Shown here in pieces: positions 443 to 11,137 of a stretch of DNA of 12,917 nucleotides. The DNA is from Kineococcus radiotolerans SRS30216 = ATCC BAA-149 (GTDB lineage: Bacteria > Actinomycetota > Actinomycetes > Actinomycetales > Kineococcaceae). Each line of letters starts with the position of its first letter. Within the stretch, counting starts at the first letter, position 1. The stretch covers positions 1-12,917 of the forward strand of contig NC_009660.1 in the NCBI RefSeq assembly GCF_000017305.1, written 5' to 3'. The translations under genes were made by a program, and so were the position numbers. The notes beneath the pieces were generated by a model. The model did no database searches, had not been told where the DNA came from, and saw nothing but the letters and a program-made list of their open reading frames with translations.

Positions 443-901
443 TCAGAGGACGATGCCGGTGTGATCGCCGCGAGGGCGGGGCTCGGGTTCCCAGGGCTTG
501 GCCGGCGGGCCCTGCGGCGGGGTGGCCAGCTCGCGCAGCTGCGCGGCGATGGCGTCCTGGACGCGCTGCTGCAGCGCCTGCGCGGCCTGGCTGGCGGGGT
601 CGGGCGTGACCGCCTCGGTGACCGCCGCAGCCGCCGAGCGGATGGCGGCCTCGGTCGCCGCCATGGTCGTGGGGTCCACCACCGCGCGGTTGCCCGGGGG
701 CAGGGCGGCCACCATCGCCTCGGCGTGGGCGCGCACGGCGGCGGCACGCTCAGCCCCAGGCCCGTCCTCGCGGCCGGACGCGCTGCGCATCACCGCCGGC
801 GCCGGCGGCATGGGCAGTGGCGACTGGCCCAGGGCCTGGCGCATCGCGTTCACCTTCATGGCCACCAGGTAGGGGTGGTCGGGGGGCAGTTCCTGCGGCA
901 T
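443..901 (-). CDS. Hypothetical protein (152 aa)
   Basis: This is the ORF-track frame 443..976 with the start moved to ATG 901..899. That ATG overlaps the TGA at 903..901 of the upstream gene (TGATG). GGAG at 910..907 lies 5 nt upstream. GC3 is high. I recognise no family. Confidence 0.55.
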   Translation of the reverse strand: MPQELPPDHPYLVAMKVNAMRQALGQSPLPMPPAPAVMRSASGREDGPGAERAAAVRAHAEAMVAALPPGNRAVVDPTTMAATEAAIRSAAAAVTEAVTPDPASQAAQALQQRVQDAIAAQLRELATPPQGPPAKPWEPEPRPRGDHTGIVL

Positions 902-1308
902 CAGTTCTCCAGGTAGCTGCTGAGCGAGATCACCGAGGCGTCGTCCTCGGTGGGGGCTGCGGTCGGCAGGTGCCACCGCAGGCGTTCGCGCGCCAGGGCG
1001 GACAGGCCCAGGCGGTCCTCCAGGGCGCGCAGCTCGGCCATGCGCTTGGCACCGGCTTCATCGCCACGTGCGATGGCGGTGCGCAGCAGGACCACGCGCA
1101 CCGTCACCGCCAGGTCGGCGGCGGGGTCCCACTGGCTGGCCATGGGCGAGGACCACAGCAGCCAGAACTCGGCCACGGCGTCCTTGCCGGCCTCGCGCAC
1201 GACCTCGGGCACCTGCTGGGGCCTGGACCAGTTCGGCGCCGTTCCCAGCACCGGCAGATCGGTCCACCCGGCCGGGCGGCGGTGGCTACGTGCGTCACGG
1301 GGCAACAT
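901..1308 (-). CDS. Putative phage terminase small subunit (TerS)-like protein, 135 aa
   Basis: This is the C-terminal part of the ORF-track frame 901..1953. ATG 1308..1306 is preceded by AGGAG 9 nt upstream. The motifs FWLLWSSPMASQW and AELRALEDRLGLSALARERLRW resemble, from memory and unverified, the W..W.sP.A..W and GL(T/S)P..R.RLR(W) signature of actinophage or P27-type small terminases. An alternative start is GTG 1521..1519, which forms a GTGA overlap with the upstream stop. Confidence 0.5.
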   Translation of the reverse strand: MLPRDARSHRRPAGWTDLPVLGTAPNWSRPQQVPEVVREAGKDAVAEFWLLWSSPMASQWDPAADLAVTVRVVLLRTAIARGDEAGAKRMAELRALEDRLGLSALARERLRWHLPTAAPTEDDASVISLSSYLEN

Positions 1309-1517
1309 GCGTGTGCTCTCCTGCCTGTTCTCGGTGTTCCTGAACCCCTGGGGGACCTCAGCAGCGCGACCGCGCAGAAGCCCACCCCTGCGCTGGCTGC
1401 GCCCCTCGGGACCTCGCCTTGATGCCCCCACCCGCCCCTGTACGCCCGGCTGACGGGCCCGCGGCACCTCGCCGGTGTCCCAGGACCCCGGCGAACCCCG
1501 AGCCCTCAACGAGGCGT

Positions 1518-1787
1518 TCACGCGCGACCCCCGGCCCCGGCCGAGATGGCGAACCGGCGAGGGCGGCGAGCACGGGCAGCCGCAGCGCAGCGCGAGCACA
1601 CTCCCCGGCAGCGGTCGGGGTCGCGCGGGTCGATGCCCAACGCACGCAACGTCGGCGCCGGCACCGGGTGCGCGATGACCGCGACGCACGGTCCCGAGCC
1701 ACAGCGGCAGCAGGTGGGGTCGATGGCGACCACGGCCTGCAGCAGGCCCGGCTCGGGCACCTGCTGGCGACGGCGGTACAGGTTCAC
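1518..1787 (-). CDS. Small Cys-rich protein (89 aa), possible zinc ribbon
   Basis: The GTG start at 1787..1785 overlaps the TGA at 1786..1784 of the primase-helicase gene (GTGA). GC3 is high. The Cys clusters are CCRCGSGPC and CRGVCSRC. Confidence 0.5.
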   Translation of the reverse strand: MNLYRRRQQVPEPGLLQAVVAIDPTCCRCGSGPCVAVIAHPVPAPTLRALGIDPRDPDRCRGVCSRCAAAARARRPRRFAISAGAGGRA

Positions 1788-4459
1788 TGGTCGTCCTCCA
1801 CGGTGTCCTCGGTGGGTGGTTCCCGGTGGTTCCCGGGTGGTTCCCCGGCGGTTCCCGGAACCACCCAGCCAGAGCCCTCCAGGTGGTTCCCCGGTTCCCC
1901 GGTACTAGACGGGGAACCGGGAACCACCGGGGCGGCACCACCCTCGGACCCACCTGCAGGGCTCAGGTGGTTCCCGCCGTCGAACTGGTCACTGCGCGGG
2001 TCCTGCGCCTCGCGGTAGCTACGCACCGAGCGGTGCAGCTGTGAACGGCCGGGGCCGGGGGTCGCCGCCACGTAGCCCTCGGCCACCAGGGTCGCCAACG
2101 CCTGGCTGCGGTACTGGGGCCGCCCCCGCATCACGTCCGTGTCCTTGGTGAGCAGGTTCGTGGTCAAGGGTTCGGGGCTGGCCTCCAGCACCTTGGACAG
2201 TCGTTCCATGTACCCCGTCAGCCGCGACCCGCCACCGCTGTGGCCGACGCCGGGGCCGTCGTCCTCGCCGCTCTCACCACCGACTGCTGGCGGGTCCACC
2301 ACCACGCGGATGGCCTCGCCGTCGCTGGAGTCCACCGAGACCCGCGCGACCTCGGCGGTGCGGTCGCTGGCCCGCCACGGCATCGCCGCGTGCGGGCGCA
2401 CCCCGCCGGGGCGGTCCTTGGCCACGCGCACCACCACCAGCCCGCGCATCCCACGCCCCAGCGGCAGCTTGGGTTCCACGATGTAGGCGGCGTCGCAGGC
2501 GGCGAGCTTGGCCTGGCTGCCGATGGCCCAGCGCCCCCGGGTGTCGCGGTCCTTGGTCACGTGGTCGATCAGCACCACGGCCGCGCCAGTCTCGCGCGCG
2601 ATGCGCCGGGGCACCCCACGCATCCACGCGGTCACGTCGTCGCCGTCCTTGGAACTAGCCCCGGCCAAGCCCAGGAACTCCGTCACCCCGTCGATCACCA
2701 CCATGTCCACCGGCTGCGCCAGCAACTGCTGCCACGCCTGCGCCTCGCTGAGCACCCCGGGGCTGACCTCAGGGCGCACGTAGCGGAACCGTTCACCCGT
2801 CAGCACCTCGGCCGGGGCCCCCATCGCCAGCAGCCGGGCCACGACGTTGCCGGGGGTGTCCTCACCGTCGATGTAGACCGCGCTGCCGCCGGCGGCCAAC
2901 ACCCGGGCGACCTCGGCCTGGGCCAGCAAGCTCTTGCCGCTCTCGGGTTCACCGGCCAGCGAGTGGACCCGCCCGGCGTACAGCAACCCCACCCCGTCGG
3001 TACGCGGCATGAACTCGGCCACCGGCACCACGTGCTCGCCGGCGACGACCGCCGCCAGGTCCACCGGCGCCCACGTAGCGCGTACGGGTTCGCCGCCGTC
3101 CTCTCCGGCGTGCGGGCCGGTGTCCTCCCCGCTGTCCAGGCCGGCGTTCTCGCGGCCACGTTCGGCATCGGCGGTCACGTCGTGGCGGTGCTGCAGGAGT
3201 GCGAGGGGCAGCGCCGCCGCCGGCAGCGGTGAGGATGCGCGGCTGCCCCGGCGCTGCACGTGGCGCTCCTGCAGCACCGCCACGACGTGGGCGGGGATGC
3301 CGAACGTGGCCGCACCGGGCACCCCGTTCAGCGCCGGCTGCAGCTTGTGGCAGAACGCGCTGAGGTCGCCGCCGAACCCGGCGAGGTGGGACAGCAGCCG
3401 GGGCACGTTCAGGCCCACCCCGGTGGGCAGGTCGGCGTTGTCCGACCAGTTCACGAACACGTCGTGCCCGTCGTGCCCGCTGTGACCCGACACCGGGTTG
3501 GACGGGTTGCCCGGCCGGCGCCACTGCAGTTCGCCGGTGGGGCTCTGGGCCACCGCGGTCCAGCCCGCGGCCTCCAGGACCTCGCGCACGCTGAGGTGCG
3601 CGGCGAGGGTCTCCAACAGGTTGGTGCCCCCGCCGGTCTCGTCGGCGAGGAAGCGCCCGGTGTTGGTGGTCGGCGCGCTGCGCGCCGGGGCGCCGACGGA
3701 GAACGCCGACGGCGGCGTCCTGGACACCGACACGGGGTGGCGGGCGTCGAGGTCGGCGCTCCACTGCTGGAGGTGGGCGAGGGTGTAGCGGGGGCCGTCG
3801 GCCAGCAGGATGCGCCGCAGCACCGGGCGCCGCCCGGGCTTGCGGCTCACCGTCCCCGCGGCGCCGAGGACCCGCGCGAGGTCGTGGGGCTTGGGGTCGT
3901 AGACGAACCCCTGGGCGGCGAACCCCCGCGCCACGCCCTCCCCGAGCCGGCGCAGCAGAGCAGCGACCGCGGCGCGGTTGCCGTCGTCGATCAGCTCGGG
4001 GTGCTCCAGCAGGAGGTAGGGGTGCTGGCCGTGGCCGCTGTCGACCAGCAGCGACGGGGGCGGCAGGACCTGGGAGAACAGCTGCGCCAGCTGTTCGCTG
4101 TCGCGCGGCAGCACCAGGCCGTCTTCGCGTTCGGGGGTTTCGTGCGCCAGCAGGGTGTCGCCGTCGAACCACGCCCCGGGCAGCACCGCCGAGGCGGTGT
4201 CACCGCCTCGGCCGCGCTCGGGACGCTGACGCTGCGAGCACACCCGCAACCAGACACTGCTGGCCGCACTACTCCAGCTGGAGGCGATGGCCTCGGCCTG
4301 CTCCGCGGTGTCCAGGTGGACCGTCCACGGCACCGCACGGTCGGGGAAGGCACCCGTCAGCGAGACCAGGAAACCGGGCGGCACCAGGCTCTGGACGTGC
4401 TGCAGGAACTGCGCACCATCGTGTTGCGGCAGGTAGCTGACCGGCTCCACCGCGCTCAC
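1784..4459 (-). CDS. Bifunctional AEP primase-polymerase / RecA-like (RepA/DnaB-type) replicative helicase with a C-terminal winged-helix-like domain (891 aa)
   Basis: This is the ORF-track 992-aa frame with the start moved to GTG 4459..4457, which overlaps the upstream TGA at 4458..4456.
- AEP motifs read by eye: AWFDGD (DxD), LLVDSGHGQHPYLLL (sGxGxH) and VYDPKPHD...GTVSRK.
- Helicase part: Walker A GEPESGKS, Walker B-like DMVVIDGV, and VVLIDHVTKD.
- A wHTH-like segment follows: LTGYMERLSKVLE...ALATLVAEGYV. Confidence 0.9.
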   Translation of the reverse strand: MSAVEPVSYLPQHDGAQFLQHVQSLVPPGFLVSLTGAFPDRAVPWTVHLDTAEQAEAIASSWSSAASSVWLRVCSQRQRPERGRGGDTASAVLPGAWFDGDTLLAHETPEREDGLVLPRDSEQLAQLFSQVLPPPSLLVDSGHGQHPYLLLEHPELIDDGNRAAVAALLRRLGEGVARGFAAQGFVYDPKPHDLARVLGAAGTVSRKPGRRPVLRRILLADGPRYTLAHLQQWSADLDARHPVSVSRTPPSAFSVGAPARSAPTTNTGRFLADETGGGTNLLETLAAHLSVREVLEAAGWTAVAQSPTGELQWRRPGNPSNPVSGHSGHDGHDVFVNWSDNADLPTGVGLNVPRLLSHLAGFGGDLSAFCHKLQPALNGVPGAATFGIPAHVVAVLQERHVQRRGSRASSPLPAAALPLALLQHRHDVTADAERGRENAGLDSGEDTGPHAGEDGGEPVRATWAPVDLAAVVAGEHVVPVAEFMPRTDGVGLLYAGRVHSLAGEPESGKSLLAQAEVARVLAAGGSAVYIDGEDTPGNVVARLLAMGAPAEVLTGERFRYVRPEVSPGVLSEAQAWQQLLAQPVDMVVIDGVTEFLGLAGASSKDGDDVTAWMRGVPRRIARETGAAVVLIDHVTKDRDTRGRWAIGSQAKLAACDAAYIVEPKLPLGRGMRGLVVVRVAKDRPGGVRPHAAMPWRASDRTAEVARVSVDSSDGEAIRVVVDPPAVGGESGEDDGPGVGHSGGGSRLTGYMERLSKVLEASPEPLTTNLLTKDTDVMRGRPQYRSQALATLVAEGYVAATPGPGRSQLHRSVRSYREAQDPRSDQFDGGNHLSPAGGSEGGAAPVVPGSPSSTGEPGNHLEGSGWVVPGTAGEPPGNHREPPTEDTVEDDQ
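1816..1975. repeat. Iteron array (GTGGTTCCC, direct and inverted copies); candidate replication origin inside the 3' end of the primase-helicase gene
   Basis: Copies by position:
- Exact GTGGTTCCC at 1816, 1826, 1837, 1883 and 1967.
- Degenerate direct copies at 1848 (GCGGTTCCC) and 1891 (CCGGTTCCC).
- Inverted GGGAACCAC, exact at 1919..1927.
- Inverted partial copies at 1857..1864 and 1912..1920.
The arms 1883..1900 and 1911..1927 form a 17/18-nt inverted repeat around GGTACTAGAC (1901..1910). Confidence 0.6.
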
Positions 4460-5836: not shown

Positions 5837-6964
5837 TCAGGAGCACCGGCGCCGGGCGTTCGCCTCGCGCAGGGCGGCGAGGGCGTGCTGCGCGATGGGG
5901 GGCAACACCGCCGAGGCGGTCTGCCGCTCGGCGGCCTCAGCGGCACGCCGAGCGCGCACCGCCTCCAGGCGCTGCTGCTGCGCCGCATGGCCGGCCAGGG
6001 CCCGCTCCAGCCCCATGGCGTCGATCAGCTGCCCCCACGCCTTCAGGCGCCAACGCAGGACCGCCACAGGGTGCTCGGGGGTCGTCGCGGCGGTGCGCAG
6101 GCTGCCGTCCGGGGCGTGGCCCACGACGTAGACCACCTGGTCCGGGGTCAGCTCCAGCAGGCCGGCCTGGCGCAGCAGGCTGGCCAGCCACGGCGTGGAG
6201 ACCGCCAGCAGCTCGGCCAGCCAGGGCAGGTGCTCGGCCTCGGCCAGGGTCTGCGCCCGGTGGCGCACCTTGGCGGCCAGCAGCAGCTGATCGGTCCTGG
6301 TCTGGCCTCGCGTCGGTGATCCATCCCGGCGCAGCCGCCGCCTGGCCAGGTCGTCGTCCCGGCGTGTCGCTGCACGTTCTGCCACTGCGATCCGGGTATC
6401 GCGCACCCGCGCGTGGGTGATCTTGTTCCCTCTCTCTGTAGAGAGAGGGGGGGTGACATTTCGTAGAATCCTGTTCTGCGGCAACACCTCTGCAGAGGTC
6501 TGCTGGGGTGCGTCAGCGGGGTCCACCGGGATGGTCAGGGCGTAAACGGCGCAGCGGTTGCCGTCCTGGCCGGCGGCCGGGTGGTGCCCGCCCCGGGTGC
6601 TGGGGGTGCTGCCGTGCTCCAGGACGACCAGCAGCCCCAACGCCTCCAGGCGGGCGCGCAGGCGGGCCACGGTGCGCTCGGTCAGGCCTAGCTGGTCAGC
6701 GGCCTTGGTGCGCACCAGGGTCGTGGTGCCGTCGCCGCGTGCGCTCTTGGCCAGCAGCCAGGCGTAGGCCAGCAGGTGCTCGCGCAGGTCGCGGCGCCCG
6801 GCCTCGGCCGTGATGACCTCACGCACGTGGCGCCACCAGGCCGGGGCGTGCCGGCGCCGGCGGAGGCGCCCGGCGGCGTGCGGCGAGGTGGGCAGGTCGT
6901 GGTCGCGGGGACCGTGCTGGACCTGGAGCGAGGGGGCGGCGCTGCGGTGCGCCGTGGCGAGCAC
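5837..6964 (-). CDS. Winged-HTH domain protein (375 aa), possibly a plasmid Rep- or regulator-type protein
   Basis: This is a long, high-GC3 ORF. The N-terminal wHTH-like segment is TKAADQLGLTERTVARLRARLEALGLLVVLEHG. I cannot assign the family by eye. The GTG start at 6964 is uncertain. Confidence 0.7.
   Translation of the reverse strand: MLATAHRSAAPSLQVQHGPRDHDLPTSPHAAGRLRRRRHAPAWWRHVREVITAEAGRRDLREHLLAYAWLLAKSARGDGTTTLVRTKAADQLGLTERTVARLRARLEALGLLVVLEHGSTPSTRGGHHPAAGQDGNRCAVYALTIPVDPADAPQQTSAEVLPQNRILRNVTPPLSTERGNKITHARVRDTRIAVAERAATRRDDDLARRRLRRDGSPTRGQTRTDQLLLAAKVRHRAQTLAEAEHLPWLAELLAVSTPWLASLLRQAGLLELTPDQVVYVVGHAPDGSLRTAATTPEHPVAVLRWRLKAWGQLIDAMGLERALAGHAAQQQRLEAVRARRAAEAAERQTASAVLPPIAQHALAALREANARRRCS
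6428..6499. repeat. Two perfect palindromes in a local low-GC patch inside the 375-aa gene
   Basis: CCCTCTCTCT-GT-AGAGAGAGGG lies at 6428..6449 and ACCTCTGCAGAGGT at 6486..6499. The codons here are atypical for the gene (ATT CTA CGA AAT ... ACA GAG AGA). Confidence 0.7.
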
Positions 6965-7043
6965 GTCAGGCGGCCGTCAGCCGTCCCGGCGAGGTGTCGG
7001 TAGGGCTCGGGGGCCCCGTCCAGGTGTCGTTCCGGCCACGGAA

Positions 7044-7068
7044 GCGTGTCAGGGACACCCTGACACGC
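7044..7068. promoter_or_regulatory. 25-bp palindrome GCGTGTCAGGG-ACA-CCCTGACACGC upstream of the 375-aa gene; candidate operator or hairpin
   Basis: It has perfect 11-bp arms and a 3-nt centre, about 80 bp upstream of the GTG at 6964 on the minus strand. Confidence 0.4.
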
Positions 7069-7294
7069 CGAGGGGGGCGCGTAGTTCTCGCGCCGGCAGG
7101 GGTTCCCTGCTTACTCTGGTCCTGCACCGCTGCTCCCGAGGGGCTACTCGTGAGTTGTGGAAGGGCCCTCGTTGTTGACGCAACGGGGGCTCTTGGCTGT
7201 CCGGGGTCGGACAGGTGCCCTGACCCTGCCCGCGATCACGCTTGGGACCTACGCGACACGCCGCACGTCAGGGCAGGGTGGTCCACCACGACGA

Positions 7295-7332
7295 AGGCCC
7301 TGGCGCCGGCTGCAGTCCGGTCACCAGGGCCT
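7295..7332 (-). terminator. Hairpin AGGCCCTGG-(20 nt)-CCAGGGCCT immediately after the stop of the AT-rich small ORF
   Basis: The 9-bp perfect stem spans 7295..7303 and 7324..7332. On the plus strand it is followed by TCATCTTATTT, and on the minus strand by TTCGTCGT. It sits exactly at the G+C / A+T composition boundary. Confidence 0.45.
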
Positions 7333-7336
7333 CATC

Positions 7337-7477
7337 TTATTTAGCTCTAAAATACTTTATAACTTCCAGAATTTGGGCAATCAATTCTGGTGAAACTGGC
7401 CCAATATGTTCAATCGCTTTAAGGCTCAATTGAAATGCCATATAGATTAGTAGTAGAAATACGCCTTCAATTCCCAT
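7337..7477 (-). CDS. Small hydrophobic peptide (46 aa) encoded in the low-GC island
   Basis: ATG 7477..7475 is preceded by AAAAGGA (7492..7486) 8 nt upstream. The peptide is MGIEGVFLLLIYMAFQLSLKAIEHIGPVSPELIAQILEVIKYFRAK, with one TM-like segment and a charged tail. The ORF-track version (85 aa, TTG at 7594) would include its own putative promoter. Confidence 0.35.
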   Translation of the reverse strand: MGIEGVFLLLIYMAFQLSLKAIEHIGPVSPELIAQILEVIKYFRAK

Positions 7478-7533
7478 AATAGTTATCCTTTTCGTTAGTT
7501 GAATTACATTATTCCTCGGCCAAAGGAGATTAC

Positions 7534-7563
7534 ATCTTAGCACGCCGACCATGATCACGTCAA
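7534..7563 (-). promoter_or_regulatory. Sigma70-like promoter candidate for the small ORF (TTGACG, 18 nt, TAAGAT)
   Basis: On the minus strand the -35 TTGACG lies at 7563..7558 and the -10 TAAGAT at 7539..7534, with an 18-nt spacer. Such hexamers arise easily by chance in AT-rich DNA. Confidence 0.3.
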
Positions 7564-7614
7564 GTCCAAGGAAAGCCAACGTGTTGTGCCACAACGAATC
7601 TCGACGCCTTTAAA

Positions 7615-8187
7615 TCAATTGTTTAAACTGCGATAAAGCGTGGCCCGACTGACCCCCAGCGCCTCGGCGGTCTCGCGGACGCTGTGGGCCTCGCCGGCGA
7701 GCATCGCGCGGGCGGCGGCGATCTTGGCTGGCGTCATCACCGTGGGTCTGCCCCCGCGCCGGCCTCGGGACCGCGCCGCTGCCAGCCCGGCCTCGGTTCG
7801 CTCACGCACTAGGTCGCGCTCGAACTCGGCAAGAGCGCCAAAAAGGTGCAGCACCAGCCGGCCGGTGGCCGTGGTGGTGTCGATGGACTCGGTGAGGCTG
7901 CGGAAGCCCACGCCTCGGGCGGCCAGGCCGTCCACGACCTCCAGCAGGTGCCGCAGCGACCGCCCGAGGCGGTCCAGGCGCCAGACCACCAGGGTGTCCC
8001 CCGGGCCCATCCCTTGCAGCGCGACCTCCAGCTGTGGCCGGCTGGTCAGCGCCCCCGACGCCATGTCGGTCAGCACCTGGGCGCAGCCAGCGGCTACCAG
8101 GGCGTCCTGCTGCAGGGCGGCATCCTGGTCGCCGGTGCTTACCCGGGCGTAGCCGATCAGCCGGCCGGTGGTCGTCAGCGTCGTCAT
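7615..8187 (-). CDS. Small serine recombinase (resolvase/invertase family)
   Basis: The catalytic motif is GYARVSTGDQ. The VVWRLDRLGRSLRHL and GALAEFERDLVRERT motifs are present, with a C-terminal HTH (SVRETAEALGVSRATLYRSL). The start is taken as ATG 8187; an in-frame GTG at 8205 is also possible. Confidence 0.9.
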   Translation of the reverse strand: MTTLTTTGRLIGYARVSTGDQDAALQQDALVAAGCAQVLTDMASGALTSRPQLEVALQGMGPGDTLVVWRLDRLGRSLRHLLEVVDGLAARGVGFRSLTESIDTTTATGRLVLHLFGALAEFERDLVRERTEAGLAAARSRGRRGGRPTVMTPAKIAAARAMLAGEAHSVRETAEALGVSRATLYRSLNN

Positions 8188-9103: not shown

Positions 9104-9484
9104 TCAGCCGTCGTGGCGCTCTAGGTACTCGCTCAGCGCGGCGGCGGTCAGGGCCTGCACGGTGGTGTCGTTCTCGGCCGCCCACCGCTTGACCCGCCGG
9201 CGCAGCGTGGGGTCCATGCGCACGCTGAACATGGGCAACGCCGCCGCCGGCTGACCTGCCGGCGCAGCCGGGCTGGTGACGGGCTCGGCCACCGACTCGG
9301 CAGCCGGCGCGGACTCAGGTGCAGGCGCGGCGTCAACGGCATCCGAGGGCGCGGGGTCGAACCCGGGCAGGAACGGGTCCTGCAGGTCATTACCGGCCAG
9401 CGCTGCTGCCGGCGCCGGCGGTGCGACGGGGTGCACAGCGGCCGGGGCCTTGCGCAGCGCGGTCTTGGGGGCGGGCTTGGCCAT
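9104..9484 (-). CDS. Ribbon-helix-helix (CopG/ParG-like) protein; likely centromere-binding partner of ParA
   Basis: ATG 9484..9482 overlaps the parA TGA at 9486..9484. The N-terminal half is disordered and Ala/Pro-rich. The C-terminal RHH is FSVRMDPTLRRRVKRWAAENDTTVQALTAAALSEYLERH. Confidence 0.7.
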   Translation of the reverse strand: MAKPAPKTALRKAPAAVHPVAPPAPAAALAGNDLQDPFLPGFDPAPSDAVDAAPAPESAPAAESVAEPVTSPAAPAGQPAAALPMFSVRMDPTLRRRVKRWAAENDTTVQALTAAALSEYLERHDG

Positions 9485-10275
9485 CAGGACACCTCCACGG
9501 TGCTCGGGGTGCTCAGGGTCTGCAGGGCCAGGACGCGCTCGGCCAGGGCGTCGTAGACCTCGGCCACGGGCTTGCCGTCCGCGCCGTAGTCAGCCACCGA
9601 GGCGGCAGCGCCCATCGCCGCCGCCACCACCGCGCGGGCGGGCACGTAGGGCTCCCACACGGCCGCGCCGTAGACCTCGGCCACCTCGGCCACGCGCAGC
9701 GCCGACTCGGTGGTGCGGTTCTGGTGGTTGACGACGATGCCGGCCAGCTGCAGCTTGCGGTTGTAGTGCTCGGCCACCACGTCCCGGGTGCGCAGGACGT
9801 TCTCCACCCCGCGCAGGCTCGCCGCCGAGGGCTCGGTGACGACCACCACGTGGGTGGCGGCCACGAACCCCAAGACGACCAGCCGGCCAATACTCGGAGG
9901 GCAGTCGATCAGCACTACGTCGTAGCCGCTGAGCCCGTCCAGGGCCTTGGCCAGGCGGAACTCGCTGCCGGGGGACAGGTCGGTCTCGCGCTCGGCCAGG
10001 TCCAGCGTGGAGCCGATTACGTCGATGCCCGCACCCCAGCCGGCGTGCTGGATGGCCTCGGCGGCGATGCCTCGGGTGTCGGCGTACACCGCGTCGTTGA
10101 CGTTGCGCACGTCGTCCAGCGGGTCCAGGCCGAGCCACTGCGTCAGGTCGGCCTGCGGATCCAGGTCGATGCAGAGCACCCGCAGGCCCCGGCGGTCCAG
10201 GGCGGCGGCGATGCCGACGACGGTGGAGGTCTTGCCCACCCCGCCCTTCTGGTTAGTGAACGCGACGGTCAGCAT
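9484..10275 (-). CDS. parA: ParA/Soj-family partition ATPase
   Basis: The deviant Walker A is MLTVAFTNQKGGVGKTS. The LCIDLDPQADLT and VVLIDCPPS motifs are present. The protein is 263 aa. Confidence 0.95.
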   Translation of the reverse strand: MLTVAFTNQKGGVGKTSTVVGIAAALDRRGLRVLCIDLDPQADLTQWLGLDPLDDVRNVNDAVYADTRGIAAEAIQHAGWGAGIDVIGSTLDLAERETDLSPGSEFRLAKALDGLSGYDVVLIDCPPSIGRLVVLGFVAATHVVVVTEPSAASLRGVENVLRTRDVVAEHYNRKLQLAGIVVNHQNRTTESALRVAEVAEVYGAAVWEPYVPARAVVAAAMGAAASVADYGADGKPVAEVYDALAERVLALQTLSTPSTVEVS

Positions 10276-10317
10276 GTCTACATACCTACATGTCTACATG
10301 TTGGCATGCAAGGACAT
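10268..10317. repeat. Tandem 8-bp iterons phased on CAT, overlapping the parA start; candidate parC/operator
   Basis: The units run consecutively from 10268: GTCAGCAT, GTCTACAT, ACCTACAT, GTCTACAT, GTTGGCAT, then GCAAGGACAT. Confidence 0.5.
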
Positions 10318-10816: not shown

Positions 10817-11137
10817 ATGATGAAGGACCCACCCGGCCGCGCCGATCATCCAGGGGTGAGCACGACCACCCCCGCCGGCGCGACCAGCCAACGCGCCCGA
10901 TAGGCCCGCACGGCGGTCACGGCGGTCACGGCGGTCACGGCGGTCACGGCGGTCACGGCGTCGCGGCACGGTCAGCCGTGGACCGCGACCGAGGACGTCG
11001 AACTGGCCGCCTGCGTCAATGACGACGACCTGGAGGCGTTTGCGTGGCGGTGGGGACGACGGTTCCTGTCCGTGAAGCAGCGGCGTCGCCGTCCCCGCAC
11101 GGGGACGACGCGAACCGGCACGGGCTGGGTCCGATGA
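10817..11137 (+). pseudogene. Myb/SANT-like (W-T-x-x-E-D) small DNA-binding ORF interrupted by an in-frame TAG at 10901..10903
   Basis: My translation is MMKDPPGRADHPGVSTTTPAGATSQRAR-TAG-ARTAVTAVTAVTAVTAVTASRHGQPWTATEDVELAACVNDDDLEAFAWRWGRRFLSVKQRRRRPRTGTTRTGTGWVR. No ATG, GTG or TTG lies between the TAG and the conserved W. The stop TGA 11135..11137 overlaps the next ATG (11134). Confidence 0.4.
10909..10960. repeat. 9-bp tandem repeat CACGGCGGT, 5 full copies plus 7 nt
   Basis: Read directly. The units start at 10909, 10918, 10927, 10936 and 10945, with a partial unit at 10954. In the three plus-strand frames it encodes (TAV)5, (HGG)5 or similar. Confidence 0.95.

What the first reader, a model, noticed from the sequence alone, without database searches (positions are those of the whole stretch)
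1816..1975. Iteron array embedded in the 3' end of the primase-helicase gene: candidate origin that dictates the protein tail
Within 160 bp I count five exact direct GTGGTTCCC copies (1816, 1826, 1837, 1883, 1967), two degenerate direct copies (1848, 1891) and inverted copies (exact GGGAACCAC at 1919..1927; partial at 1857 and 1912). The first four copies are spaced 10, 11 and 11 bp, close to one helical turn. Two arms (1883..1900 and 1911..1927) form a 17/18-nt inverted repeat around GGTACTAGAC, the only A/T-containing patch. The coding frame therefore reads repeated GNH / PGNH peptides, and the other frames read WFPG repeats, which points to a DNA-level constraint. A winged-helix-like segment sits just upstream in the same protein. 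Known analogies are the SaPI/PICI ori iterons next to the 3' end of rep, and P4 alpha binding iterons through its C-terminal domain.
Basis: partly seen in the sequence, partly recalled or inferred. Interest (0 to 1): 0.7.

Follow-up and report, generated by a model that had tools for sequence, protein, structure and literature searches.

The report
Replication origin inside a primase-helicase gene
The last ~190 bases of this plasmid's primase-helicase gene hold short repeated binding sites plus a palindrome that are very probably the plasmid's replication origin, and the same hidden origin sits at the same spot beside related genes in well over a hundred other actinobacterial plasmids, prophages and islands.

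Summary
GTGGTTCCC occurs 6 times exactly (0.13 expected), only in 1816-1975, with about 6 degenerate copies. The layout is 4 tandem copies 10-11 bp apart, one inverted copy, a doubled-arm palindrome around GGTACTAGAC, then more copies.

The window is the whole 12,917-bp circular plasmid pKRAD02 of Kineococcus radiotolerans. The array is the last 63 codons of an 891-aa primase-polymerase / AAA_25 helicase / winged-helix protein.

The decisive evidence is comparative. In 70 genome loci and 51 independent viral contigs encoding relatives, locus-specific 8-mers pile up only in the 200 nt after the winged-helix coding region (mean maximum 4.2-4.75 copies against a baseline of 1.75). The architecture is the same but the sequences differ. 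In 41 loci the array lies inside the ORF, always read in two or more frames and in both orientations. In 20 loci it lies after the stop codon. Iteron similarity tracks winged-helix similarity, not ATPase similarity.

The array is therefore a DNA element, most likely the cognate origin, and the disordered protein tail is its by-product. Streptomyces plasmid pWTY27 gives experimental precedent: same gene order, GGGAAC-type iterons, RepA binding, and a requirement for replication. Function in pKRAD02 itself is untested.

The parts
1784..4459 (-). Gene for the 891-aa replication protein (P0001, 'AAA family ATPase [Kineococcus radiotolerans]'). Its domains in order are an N-terminal primase-polymerase-like region, an AAA_25 RecA-fold helicase domain, a winged helix and an array-encoded tail.
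   Evidence: ORF and translation. 100% match to P0001. Third-position GC frame signal. Relatives carry PF09250 Prim-Pol plus PF13481 AAA_25.
3764..4309 (-). Primase-polymerase-like (AEP) region, aa 51-232.
   Evidence: phrog_2478 'DNA polymerase/primase', E = 1.8e-8. tblastn similarity to the N-termini of P0002, P0003 and L003. Pfam PF09250 itself is not hit in this protein, but it is hit in most relatives.
2543..2989 (-). AAA_25 ATPase/helicase core.
   Evidence: PF13481, E = 2.8e-16. phrog_695 and phrog_239 primase/helicase. Weak RadB, RecA and RAD51-paralogue matches.
1988..2227 (-). Winged-helix DNA-binding domain, the presumed iteron reader.
   Evidence: AlphaFold2 model residues 21-100 of the fragment have pLDDT 89-97 with H-b-H-H-b-hairpin topology. 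All the top Foldseek matches are known winged-helix domains. Its similarity between loci covaries with iteron similarity.
1787..1975 (-). Array-encoded C-terminal tail (63 codons), predicted disordered: GGNHLSPAGGSEGGAAPVVPGSPSSTGEPGNHLEGSGWVVPGTAGEPPGNHREPPTEDTVEDDQ.
   Evidence: pLDDT 53-62 with no secondary structure. GC3 is 0.730 here against 0.931 in the rest of the gene. The 9-mer is read in three ways.
1816..1856 (+). Tandem block of four direct iterons, GTGGTTCCC at 1816, 1826 and 1837 and GCGGTTCCC at 1848, with steps of 10, 11 and 11 bp.
   Evidence: An equivalent block of 3 or more copies at 9-12 bp is present in 45 of 64 related loci.
1856..1864 (-). Single inverted iteron (CGGAACCAC on the + strand) closing the tandem block.
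   Evidence: The same 'tandem block then one inverted copy' arrangement is seen in L090, L091, L009, L010 and L077.
1883..1927 (.). Doubled-arm palindrome. Two abutting iterons (GTGGTTCCC, CGGTTCCCC), the centre GGTACTAGAC (1901-1910), then two inverted iterons (GGGGAACCG, GGGAACCAC). This is the proposed melting, helicase-loading and priming site.
   Evidence: Hairpin energy -28.3 kcal/mol, z = -6.15. A doubled-arm palindrome with a C-run, an A/T core and a G-run is present in 43 of 64 related loci.
1934..1953 (-). Two degenerate inverted copies, GGCACCAC at 1934-1941 and GGACCCAC at 1946-1953.
   Evidence: at most 1 mismatch to the 8-mer GGAACCAC.
1967..1975 (+). Distal direct iteron, GTGGTTCCC.

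Best explanation
The array 1816-1975 is most likely the origin of replication that belongs to the plasmid's own primase-polymerase/helicase protein. The proposed mechanism has five steps.

1. **Site recognition.** The protein's C-terminal winged helix recognises the 9-bp iteron. *(Inferred from covariation and from pWTY27.)*
2. **Loading platform.** Several subunits occupy the four helically phased tandem sites and the two inverted pairs of the palindrome. This brings AAA_25 helicase rings, probably two facing opposite ways, onto the palindrome. *(Inferred.)*
3. **Melting.** The short A/T-containing centre between the C-run and the G-run melts or extrudes as a hairpin. In a 72% G+C replicon this is the only weak point. 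*(Inferred; the hairpin potential is shown.)*
4. **Priming.** The N-terminal primase-polymerase domain primes on the exposed strands, so initiation needs no host primase or host initiator. *(Inferred from the domain content.)*
5. **Coding by-product.** Because the origin lies in cis at the 3' end of the gene, here inside it, the last 63 codons are simply the origin read as protein. They form a disordered tail whose sequence is dictated by the DNA sites. *(Shown: reading in several frames and both orientations, loss of codon bias, and relatives whose array lies after the stop codon.)*
For: **In the window**
- Six exact copies against 0.13 expected, all within 160 bp.
- Helical phasing of 10, 11 and 11 bp.
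- Palindrome hairpin with z = -6.15.
- GC3 drops from 0.931 to 0.730 in the tail.
- The tail is predicted disordered and sits directly after a confident winged helix.
- No Rfam family, promoter-like site or terminator-like site explains the region.

**In the family**
- An exhaustive HMMER search found 6,723 relatives.
- In 70 genome loci the maximum 8-mer multiplicity per 200 nt rises from 1.75 across roughly 9 kb of flanks to 4.20 and 3.75 in the two 100-nt bins after the winged-helix coding end. 64 of the 70 loci have 5 or more copies there.
- This was replicated on 51 non-redundant IMG/VR loci: 4.75 and 4.28 against about 1.75, with 42 of 51 loci having their maximum there.
- The repeat sequences differ between loci but the architecture is shared. 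Neighbour spacing peaks at 10-11 bp and at 7-8 bp. A tandem block is present in 45 of 64 loci and a doubled-arm palindrome in 43 of 64. The block has the same orientation as the nearer palindrome arm in 25 loci against 4.
- The array lies inside the ORF in 41 loci, all read in two or more frames and in both orientations. It lies after the stop codon in 20 loci. The module lies either way round relative to the gene, 14 against 15.
- Iteron similarity correlates with winged-helix identity (Spearman 0.21; 0 of 2000 permutations reach it) and not with ATPase identity (-0.03).
- No other pKRAD02 gene travels with the array.

**In plasmids and AICE-like elements**
- The same module lies in non-coding DNA directly after the AAA_25 gene of Streptomyces plasmid p-XQ-29-C.
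- It also lies there in two Streptomyces AICE-like islands that have separate Prim-Pol and AAA_25 genes.

**Experimental precedent**
- pWTY27 has the order repB (Prim-Pol), repA, then a 300-bp region of GTGGGAAC/TTCCCAC repeats with a long inverted repeat.
- That region is required with repAB for replication in S. lividans.
- RepA binds it in EMSA and footprinting, leaving the loop free, and replication is bidirectional (PMC3583192).
Against: - There is no experiment on pKRAD02.
- There is no classical A/T-rich unwinding element, only a 10-nt A/T-containing centre.
- Cumulative GC skew has its minimum at 3159 and its maximum at 7217, not at the array. It is weak, and it is confounded because almost all genes lie on one strand.
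- The plasmid has a second candidate region. A 375-aa winged-HTH protein (5837-6964) has a faint 'replication initiation O-like' match (E = 0.0028), and a 230-bp island of about 33% G+C lies at 7330-7560. I found no iterons there.
- I could not test whether pWTY27 RepA is homologous to this protein, because its sequence is not in any collection I could reach.
- The covariation is modest. It could also arise because the winged-helix coding region and the array are inherited as one linked block.
Confidence: 0.8

Rival explanations
1. The array is a protein-level feature. It would be a low-complexity repeat tail (GNH, PGNH, VVPG) produced by replication slippage and kept for a protein function, with no role for the DNA.
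For: The tail is translated and stays open to the stop codon. In many relatives the ORF runs through the array to a conserved CxxCG...H..C or TGEIxxG C-terminal motif, so the stretch does serve as a linker there.
Against: - The same 9-mer is read in two frames and on both strands, giving three unrelated peptides.
- This holds in all 41 loci with an internal array.
- In 20 loci the array lies after the stop codon.
- Spacing is 10-11 bp rather than a multiple of 3.
- GC3 falls to 0.73 in the tail.
- The tail is predicted disordered.
Confidence: 0.03
2. The array is a packaging recognition site (pac/cosB-like), bound by the small-terminase-like protein encoded about 500 bp downstream (901-1314). 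pKRAD02 would then be packaged by a helper phage.
For: The ORF 904-1314 hits Pfam Terminase_7 (E = 7e-8). A small Cys-rich HNH-like ORF lies between it and the array. Repeated sites upstream of a small-terminase gene are the known layout of lambda cosB (own knowledge). Some related elements carry a large terminase and a capsid gene.
Against: - The terminase-like gene has no tblastn homologue in any of the 80 related loci, yet the array is there.
- Downstream genes are not conserved.
- The array also occurs in Streptomyces plasmid and AICE-like elements that show no called terminase or capsid gene in the stretches read.
- Iterons covary with the helicase's own winged helix.
- PHROGs labels the same ORF 'minor tail protein', so even its identity is unsure.
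Confidence: 0.05
3. The array is a regulatory or copy-control site rather than the initiation site. The winged helix would bind it to autoregulate or terminate transcription into the downstream genes, or to handcuff plasmid copies, while replication starts elsewhere (for example near the A/T-rich island at 7330-7560 under the 375-aa winged-HTH protein).
For: Iterons in known plasmids also act in copy control by handcuffing (own knowledge; reviewed in PMC4980987, seen). A second winged-HTH protein and an A/T-rich island exist. The GC-skew maximum at 7217 lies next to that island.
Against: - No iterons or repeats occur at 6900-7700.
- The 375-aa protein has no relative in 72,556 plasmids.
- Relatives, which are small islands and a 7.9-kb plasmid, have no such second system, yet they keep the array.
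- In pWTY27 the equivalent region is needed for replication itself.
- Control and initiation roles are not exclusive.
Confidence: 0.1
4. The array is a partition site (parS-like centromere) for the plasmid's ParA and ribbon-helix-helix pair.
For: Centromeres of small ParA systems are arrays of short direct and inverted repeats (own knowledge). The plasmid has a ParA gene (9484-10275) and an RHH gene (9104-9484).
Against: - The array lies about 7 kb from the par genes.
- Better-placed repeats exist: CATGTCTACAT three times at 10273-10299, right at the parA start, and a 9-bp tandem array at 10900-10964.
- The related loci have the array but no ParA homologue.
Confidence: 0.02

Closest known systems
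Streptomyces plasmid pWTY27 replication locus (repB Prim-Pol, repA, iteron region; Wang et al. 2012, PMC3583192)
   Same: - The order along the transcript is the same: primase-polymerase, then a second replication protein, then the repeat region at its 3' end.
- The repeats are one 7-8-bp motif on both strands (GTGGGAAC / TTCCCAC), with almost the same GGGAAC/GTTCCC core as GGGAACCAC/GTGGTTCCC here.
- It has a long discontinuous inverted repeat whose loop stays unprotected.
- The region is essential for replication and is bound by RepA.
- Replication is bidirectional.
   Different: - In pWTY27 the two proteins are separate and the repeats lie in 300 bp of non-coding DNA. Here the proteins are fused and the repeats are translated.
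- pWTY27 RepA (522 aa) was reported as a 'hypothetical protein', and I could not test its homology to the AAA_25/winged-helix part.
Phage lambda ori inside the O gene (and other lambdoid phages)
   Same: - The origin iterons lie within the coding sequence of the initiator itself, in a linker between domains.
- Iteron sequence and the DNA-binding domain vary together between relatives.
- Transcription of the initiator gene runs through the origin.
(Own knowledge; the O/ori interaction is treated in PMC7466680, listed.)
   Different: - Lambda O is not a helicase or primase. It recruits host DnaB through the P protein.
- The lambda origin has a clear A/T-rich region.
- There is no sequence relation. 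The only 'O-like' hit in the window is a faint one in a different protein.
SaPI/PICI origins next to the 3' end of pri-rep
   Same: - The origin lies at the 3' end of a primase plus self-loading helicase gene whose C-terminal part gives iteron specificity.
- The elements are small, mobilisable and phage-related (own knowledge; SaPI Rep helicases are treated in PMC9371898, listed).
- Relatives of the window's gene sit in small integrase-bearing islands with HNH, terminase and capsid genes.
   Different: - SaPI origins are non-coding and flank an A/T-rich stretch.
- The hosts are low-G+C Firmicutes and the proteins are not detectably related.
- pKRAD02 is a free circular plasmid with ParA and a resolvase and no integrase.
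Phage P4 alpha and archaeal plasmid pRN1 ORF904
   Same: - One polypeptide carries a primase, a helicase and a C-terminal winged-helix-type DNA-binding domain.
- P4 alpha binds short iterons through its C-terminal domain (own knowledge).
- The pRN1 minimal replicon needs 166 bp just downstream of orf904 (PMC4234260 abstract).
   Different: - P4 alpha has a different primase type (Toprim) and an SF3 helicase, and its ori and crr lie away from the gene.
- pRN1 has an SF3 helicase and a stem-loop rather than an iteron array.
- Here the helicase is a RecA-fold AAA_25 type.
IncQ (RSF1010) oriV with RepA, RepB' and RepC
   Same: - The three activities are the same: an iteron binder, an AAA_25-type hexameric helicase (RepA) and a plasmid primase.
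- That primase starts on two hairpins on opposite strands, ssiA and ssiB (PMC8567376 abstract; the rest is own knowledge).
- The origin is a tandem iteron block followed by a large inverted structure, and initiation does not depend on host factors.
   Different: - RSF1010 has three separate proteins, 20-bp iterons, an A/T-rich segment, and ssi hairpins unrelated in sequence to the iterons.
- Here there is one fused protein and the palindrome arms are made of the iterons themselves.

Membership tests
Iteron-type replication origin | Three or more copies of one short motif, directly repeated and in helical phase | tested here: met
   Four tandem copies at 10, 11 and 11 bp, and 12-13 copies in 160 bp; 6 exact copies against 0.13 expected. 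Across the family, neighbour spacing peaks at 10-11 bp.
Iteron-type replication origin | Lies next to or within the gene of its own initiator, which has a sequence-specific DNA-binding domain | tested here: met
   The array is the 3' end of the Prim-Pol/AAA_25 gene. A winged helix is predicted immediately upstream of it. The position is conserved in 64 of 70 genome loci and 42 of 51 viral loci.
Iteron-type replication origin | Iteron sequence co-varies with the initiator's DNA-binding domain | tested here: met
   Spearman 0.21 with winged-helix identity (0 of 2000 permutations reach it) against -0.03 with ATPase identity. The effect is modest and linkage could contribute.
Iteron-type replication origin | Adjacent A/T-rich DNA unwinding element | tested here: inconclusive
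   There is only a 10-nt A/T-containing palindrome centre (GGTACTAGAC). Relatives likewise have 4-8-nt A/T cores between a C-run and a G-run. No long A/T-rich tract is present.
Iteron-type replication origin | Supports initiator-dependent replication, and the initiator binds the repeats | not testable with these tools
   This needs mini-replicon and EMSA/footprint experiments. The only evidence is by analogy with pWTY27.
pWTY27-type replicon (repB Prim-Pol, repA, iteron) | Primase-polymerase, then a second replication protein, then the repeat region at its 3' end | tested here: met
   pWTY27 coordinates are 3283-2195c, 2189-621c and ncs 620-321. The window has a fused Prim-Pol/AAA_25 gene followed by the array. 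Split versions followed by non-coding arrays are seen in L087, L090 and L091.
pWTY27-type replicon (repB Prim-Pol, repA, iteron) | One motif on both strands plus a long discontinuous inverted repeat | tested here: met
   Direct and inverted copies and the palindrome 1883-1927. The motif core GGGAAC/GTTCCC is shared with pWTY27 DR1/DR2.
pWTY27-type replicon (repB Prim-Pol, repA, iteron) | RepA homologous to the protein encoded here | not testable with these tools
   GU226194 is not in the collections. Primer-based scans returned unrelated DNA. It is not among the named hits of the last protein search.
Lambda-type origin embedded in the initiator gene | Origin repeats lie inside the initiator's coding sequence, in an inter-domain linker | tested here: met
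   In the window the repeats form the last 63 codons. In many relatives they lie between the winged helix and a CxxCG...H..C motif.
Lambda-type origin embedded in the initiator gene | Initiator homologous to lambda O | tested here: not met
   The primase-helicase has no O-like hit. The only faint phrog_391 hit (E = 0.0028) is in another protein, 5840-6964.
SaPI/PICI origin | Element integrated by an integrase, with the origin 3' of pri-rep as iterons flanking an A/T-rich region | tested here: not met
   pKRAD02 is a free circular plasmid with no integrase gene found, and there is no A/T-rich tract. The position at the 3' end of the primase-helicase gene is shared. Many relatives are integrase-bearing islands.
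Prim-Pol + AAA_25 replication protein family | PF13481 AAA_25 domain with an N-terminal primase-polymerase | tested here: met
   AAA_25 E = 2.8e-16. The N-terminus matches phrog_2478 and the N-termini of P0002, P0003 and L003. PF09250 itself is below threshold here but present in most relatives.
Plasmid centromere (parS) | Repeat array next to the parA operon, found together with it | tested here: not met
   The array is about 7 kb from parA. Other repeats sit at the parA start. Relatives have the array but no ParA homologue.
Terminase recognition site (pac/cosB) | Found together with the small-terminase gene it serves | tested here: not met
   The Terminase_7-like gene has no homologue in the 80 related loci that keep the array. 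Downstream genes vary.
Known structured RNA or intrinsic terminator | Match to an Rfam model, or a hairpin followed by a T-run | tested here: not met
   No Rfam match in the window. No terminator-like site in 1300-2300.

The most novel reading that the evidence does not exclude
The overlap may be functional rather than incidental. Every round of transcription and translation of the replication gene has to pass through its own origin. Expression of the initiator would then be mechanically coupled to origin opening or occlusion: RNA polymerase passage would activate the origin, as in lambda, and bound initiator would block or terminate its own message. In relatives the array-encoded disordered linker tethers a zinc-ribbon, and its sequence would be forced to change whenever origin specificity changes. 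That would make this a widespread family in which one DNA stretch is origin, autoregulatory site and coding linker at once. It would also give a way for new incompatibility groups to arise by changing a single 200-bp segment.
Probability: 0.15. Interest if true: 0.75.

Novelty: new variant of a known kind. Interest (0 to 1): 0.6.

Why it matters
**A testable origin for pKRAD02.** The origin of this plasmid was never assigned; the genome paper only lists the replicon.

**A simple rule for a large family.** The family had 6,723 detectable members in the library searched, found in actinobacterial prophages, satellite-like islands, AICE-like elements and plasmids. In the 121 loci examined, the 200 nt after the winged-helix coding region usually held the element's own iterons and palindrome (64 of 70 genome loci, 42 of 51 viral loci). 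The rule could be used in three ways:
- to annotate origins automatically;
- to predict incompatibility or specificity groups from the iteron word;
- to design minimal, host-primase-independent vectors for high-G+C bacteria.

**A clean example of non-coding constraint on a protein.** These tails show up in protein databases as odd repeats such as 'PGNH', 'QVLPSAS' and 'DTVTRS', and a recurrent 'SP[LYI][RG]G' motif that I read as the translated palindrome centre. They are translated origin DNA, so they should not be read as protein motifs.

The general idea of an origin in or beside the initiator gene is old (lambda, SaPI, pWTY27). This extends a known principle rather than introducing a new one.

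Tried and rejected
**Searches that found nothing useful**
- Whole-window megablast against plasmids and phages gave only a resolvase match and no match.
- The first word-indexed protein search found only 2 distant relatives. The single-sequence genome scan found none. The family appeared only with the exhaustive HMMER search and with profile-based scans.

**Attempts to test homology with pWTY27 RepA**
- The accession is not held and the pFP1/pFP11 paper is not held.
- A 21-nt published primer found nothing in viral contigs. It found two unrelated metagenome contigs with neither the second primer nor the iterons.
- A Streptomyces-focused profile search returned only 'AAA family ATPase' and 'DNA primase' names.
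- The homology is therefore left open.

**Analyses that were uninformative or negative**
- Cumulative GC skew was uninformative.
- Rfam and promoter/terminator scans were negative.
- I considered that ORF 1518-1787 is the detached zinc-ribbon seen at the C-terminus of relatives. I set this aside because it has no tblastn similarity to them and only a faint HNH-like PHROG hit.

**Interpretations considered and rejected**
- parS, a pac site and a pure protein repeat; see the rival explanations.
- An attachment site: the arrays are internal to the islands, next to the replication gene and not next to the integrase end.

**A flaw in one of my own checks**
- My first regular expression for zinc-ribbons was too strict and counted only 4 tails. 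Reading the tails by eye shows the CxxCG...H..C motif in about a dozen.

Full report
**What the window is.** The large minus-strand ORF is 100% identical to an NCBI protein of Kineococcus radiotolerans whose longest contig is 12,917 bases. The genome paper lists a 12,917-bp circular plasmid, pKRAD02 (CP000752), and says nothing about its replication. The window is therefore very probably the whole replicon, at 72% G+C.

Frame-specific G+C, Pfam and PHROGs give the following genes, all on the minus strand:

| Coordinates | Product |
|---|---|
| 4459-1784 | Primase-polymerase / AAA_25 protein |
| 1787-1518 | Small Cys-rich ORF overlapping the stop codon of the gene above (GTGA) |
| 1314-901 | Terminase_7-like protein |
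| 5473-5204 | HTH_3 protein |
| 6964-5837 | 375-aa winged-HTH protein |
| 8205-7615 | Serine recombinase |
| 10275-9104 | ParA plus a ribbon-helix-helix protein |

- GTGGTTCCC occurs exactly at 1816, 1826, 1837, 1883 and 1967, and inverted at 1919-1927. It occurs nowhere else. Shuffles give 0.13 copies on average and never 6.
- With degenerate copies (1848, 1856-, 1891, 1912-, 1934-, 1946-) there are 12-13 copies in 160 bp.
- Read along the + strand, the layout is: four tandem copies at 10, 11 and 11 bp; one inverted copy; a spacer; two abutting copies; the centre GGTACTAGAC; two abutting inverted copies; two weak inverted copies; and a last direct copy.
- The palindrome folds as single-stranded DNA at -28.3 kcal/mol (z = -6.15).
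- This is the most repeat-dense 200 nt of the plasmid.

**The array and the protein.**
- The array is exactly the last 63 codons of the 891-aa protein.
- The 9-mer is read as GNH, as EPP in a second frame, and as VVP when inverted.
- Third-position G+C is 0.931 in the body of the gene and 0.730 in the tail.
- An AlphaFold2 model of residues 725-891, built on 45 relatives, shows a confident winged helix (pLDDT 89-97; H-b-H-H-b-hairpin) directly followed by a tail with pLDDT 53-62 and no secondary structure.
- The Foldseek neighbours of the folded part are BlaI, Fur/Zur, MarR, ArsR, PadR and Cdt1 winged-helix domains.
- The middle of the protein is an AAA_25 RecA-fold ATPase. The N-terminus matches phage 'DNA polymerase/primase' families.

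**The comparative test.**
- The word-indexed search found almost nothing. An exhaustive HMMER search found 6,723 relatives, 1,585 of them below 1e-30, typically 45-50% identical over the ATPase and winged helix. Most carry PF09250 Prim-Pol plus PF13481 AAA_25.
- Their C-terminal tails show different short repeated peptides in each protein.
- I fetched 80 genome loci from across the Actinomycetota. I anchored each at the position aligned to the end of the 'YREAQDPRSDQF' motif that closes the winged helix. I then measured, in sliding 200-nt windows, the highest multiplicity of any 8-mer on either strand.
- The mean is 1.62-1.88 everywhere from -5.0 kb to +3.8 kb. It rises to 4.20 and 3.75 only in the two 100-nt bins just after the anchor.
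- 64 of 70 loci have 5 or more copies (at most one mismatch) of a locus-specific 8-mer there.
- The result repeats on an independent set. In 51 non-redundant IMG/VR contigs the means are 4.75 and 4.28 against about 1.75, and 42 of 51 loci have their maximum there.

**A shared architecture with different words.**
- The repeated words differ between loci, for example GACCTCGC, ACCGTCTC, CCTCATCC, CTGGTTCC, GGGAACCA, GGACACAC, CCGTGCCC and GGAAAAAC. The plan is the same.
- The distance between same-strand neighbours peaks at 10-11 bp (106 of 465) and at 7-8 bp (65 of 465).
- 45 of 64 loci have a tandem block of three or more copies at 9-12 bp. 43 of 64 have a palindrome whose arms are doubled iterons around a C-run, a short A/T core and a G-run, such as CCCCTTTACGGGG, CCCCTAAGGGG or CCCTATAGGG.
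- The block points the same way as the nearer arm in 25 loci against 4.
- The whole module lies either way round relative to the gene, with the block 5' in 14 loci and 3' in 15.
- The window has the block on the far side of the palindrome from the winged-helix coding region.

**Coding or not.**
- In 41 loci the array is inside the ORF. In all 41 it is read in at least two frames and in both orientations.
- In 20 loci the ORF stops at the end of the winged helix and the same array lies in non-coding DNA.
- The same holds in the 7.9-kb Streptomyces plasmid p-XQ-29-C. There, ACCTGCCC repeats and a ...CCCC-TCTA-GGGG... palindrome begin right after the stop codon of a 370-aa AAA_25 protein.
- It also holds in two Streptomyces AICE-like islands with separate Prim-Pol and AAA_25 genes. 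There the array reads GACCTCGTCC three times, then an inverted copy, then GACCTCGTCCCTCGTCCCAC-TTCTTTAG-GTGGGACGAGGACGAGG.
- Where the ORF continues, it often ends in a CxxCG...H..C motif or a TGEIxxG motif. The array-encoded stretch is then a real linker. In pKRAD02 only nine more codons follow it.
- The constraint is therefore on the DNA, and the peptide follows from it.

**Which protein reads it.**
- Iteron similarity between loci correlates with identity in the winged helix (Spearman 0.21; no label permutation out of 2000 reaches it). It does not correlate with identity in the ATPase domain (-0.03).
- Loci with GGAAC-type iterons share distinctive wing sequences.
- None of the other pKRAD02 genes has a homologue in the 80 loci. 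That includes the terminase-like gene, ParA and the 375-aa protein. Genes downstream of the array vary: capsid, large terminase, SNF2 helicase, SSB, Spd, or nothing recognisable.
- The array travels only with the helicase/winged-helix gene.

**Precedent.**
- In Streptomyces plasmid pWTY27 the minimal replicon is repB (Prim-Pol, 362 aa), repA (522 aa) and the 300 bp that follow repA.
- That 300-bp region holds five GTGGGAAC and five TTCCCAC repeats, which are one motif on the two strands, plus a long discontinuous inverted repeat.
- RepA binds it specifically and protects the inverted repeat but not its loop.
- The locus replicates bidirectionally.
- The gene order, the layout and even the GGGAAC core match the window.
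- I could not obtain the pWTY27 sequence, so homology of RepA is likely but untested.
- The AICE review notes that the role of Prim-pol proteins in these elements was unknown.
- My full-text searches found no description of an origin at this position for this family.

**Most likely mechanism.**
1. The winged helices of several subunits bind the phased tandem sites and the inverted pairs.
2. This loads AAA_25 helicase rings on the palindrome.
3. The small A/T core between the G/C runs opens or extrudes.
4. The Prim-Pol domain primes both strands.

In functional terms this is RSF1010 RepC, RepA and RepB' in one chain, or P4 alpha and pRN1 ORF904 built with a different helicase. The binding, loading and priming steps are inferred. 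The DNA-level conservation, the position, the architecture and the covariation are shown.

**Weak points.**
- There is no experiment on pKRAD02.
- There is no long A/T-rich unwinding element.
- GC skew is uninformative.
- A second candidate region exists, made of the 375-aa winged-HTH protein and the ~33% G+C island at 7330-7560. It has no repeats and no relatives among 72,556 plasmids.

**Verdict.** The thing is a new variant of a known kind: an iteron origin placed in cis at, and here inside, the 3' end of its own initiator-helicase gene. It was found to be typical of a large actinobacterial family. Confidence that it is the cognate origin is 0.8.

Noticed in passing
window 7330-7560: There is a 230-bp island of about 33% G+C in a 72% G+C plasmid, between the 375-aa winged-HTH gene and the serine recombinase gene. 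It holds a small minus-strand ORF (7337-7594, 85 codons from TTG) with a hydrophobic stretch (GVFLLLIYMAFQL). It could be foreign DNA, a small membrane or toxin peptide, or an unwinding region. No repeats were found in it.
   Followed up: partly
window 10900-10964: A perfect 9-bp tandem repeat (CACGGCGGT, about 6-7 units) lies about 630 bp upstream of the parA start. It is the second most repeat-dense spot of the plasmid. It may be a centromere-like or slippage array.
   Followed up: no
window 10273-10299: CATGTCTACAT / CATACCTACAT / CATGTCTACAT lie at 8-bp steps, overlapping the first codon of parA (which ends at 10275). This is a plausible operator or partition site for the ribbon-helix-helix protein encoded at 9104-9484.
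   Followed up: no
window 901-1787: Downstream of the replication gene lie a Cys-rich 89-aa ORF (1518-1787) and a 137-aa ORF. The first starts with a GTGA start/stop overlap and has a faint HNH-like PHROG hit. The second matches Pfam Terminase_7 (E = 7e-8), although PHROGs labels its family 'minor tail protein'. No large terminase or capsid gene is present. The plasmid therefore carries what looks like a remnant, or a hijacking piece, of a phage packaging module.
   Followed up: partly
window 5837-7068: A 375-aa winged-HTH protein has a faint 'replication initiation O-like' PHROG hit (E = 0.0028) and no relative in PLSDB. Upstream of it lies a perfect 11-bp palindrome, GCGTGTCAGGG/CCCTGACACGC, at 7044-7068. 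It may be a regulator or a second initiator.
   Followed up: partly
L002 9046-9305: A distant relative has a DUF927-type helicase instead of AAA_25 (P0003). Directly after its stop codon it has GCTACGCA iterons in both orientations around an A/T-rich patch (TCACTCTCAAATTTTCAGACATAACA). The 'origin at the 3' end' rule therefore seems to extend beyond the AAA_25 family.
   Followed up: partly
Protein tails of relatives (P0003-P0040; L003-L082): After the array many relatives end in a CxxCG-x(10-20)-H-x(1-3)-C motif (zinc-ribbon-like). A Brachybacterium/Cellulosimicrobium group ends in K..TGEI(H/W/I).G instead. pKRAD02 has neither and ends in an acidic TEDTVEDDQ. The recurrent 'SP[LYI][RG]G' peptide in tails appears to be the translated palindrome centre (for example CCC-TAT-AGG-GG).
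   Followed up: partly
L003-L171 iteron words: Iteron words from distant loci fall into a few recurring cores: GGAAC/GGAAA, GGGAC(A/G)C, ACCGTCTC and ACCTCG. Unrelated hosts reuse identical 8-mers, for example ACCGTCTC in Brachybacterium, Arachnia and Oryzobacter. This hints at a limited recognition code for this winged helix.
   Followed up: partly
L122-L171 (IMG/VR), about 1.1-1.3 kb upstream of the anchor: A small second rise in 8-mer multiplicity (2.2-2.7 against 1.75) appears inside the helicase gene of a large group of closely related ~60% G+C viral contigs. It is probably one repeat inherited by many near-identical sequences.
   Followed up: no
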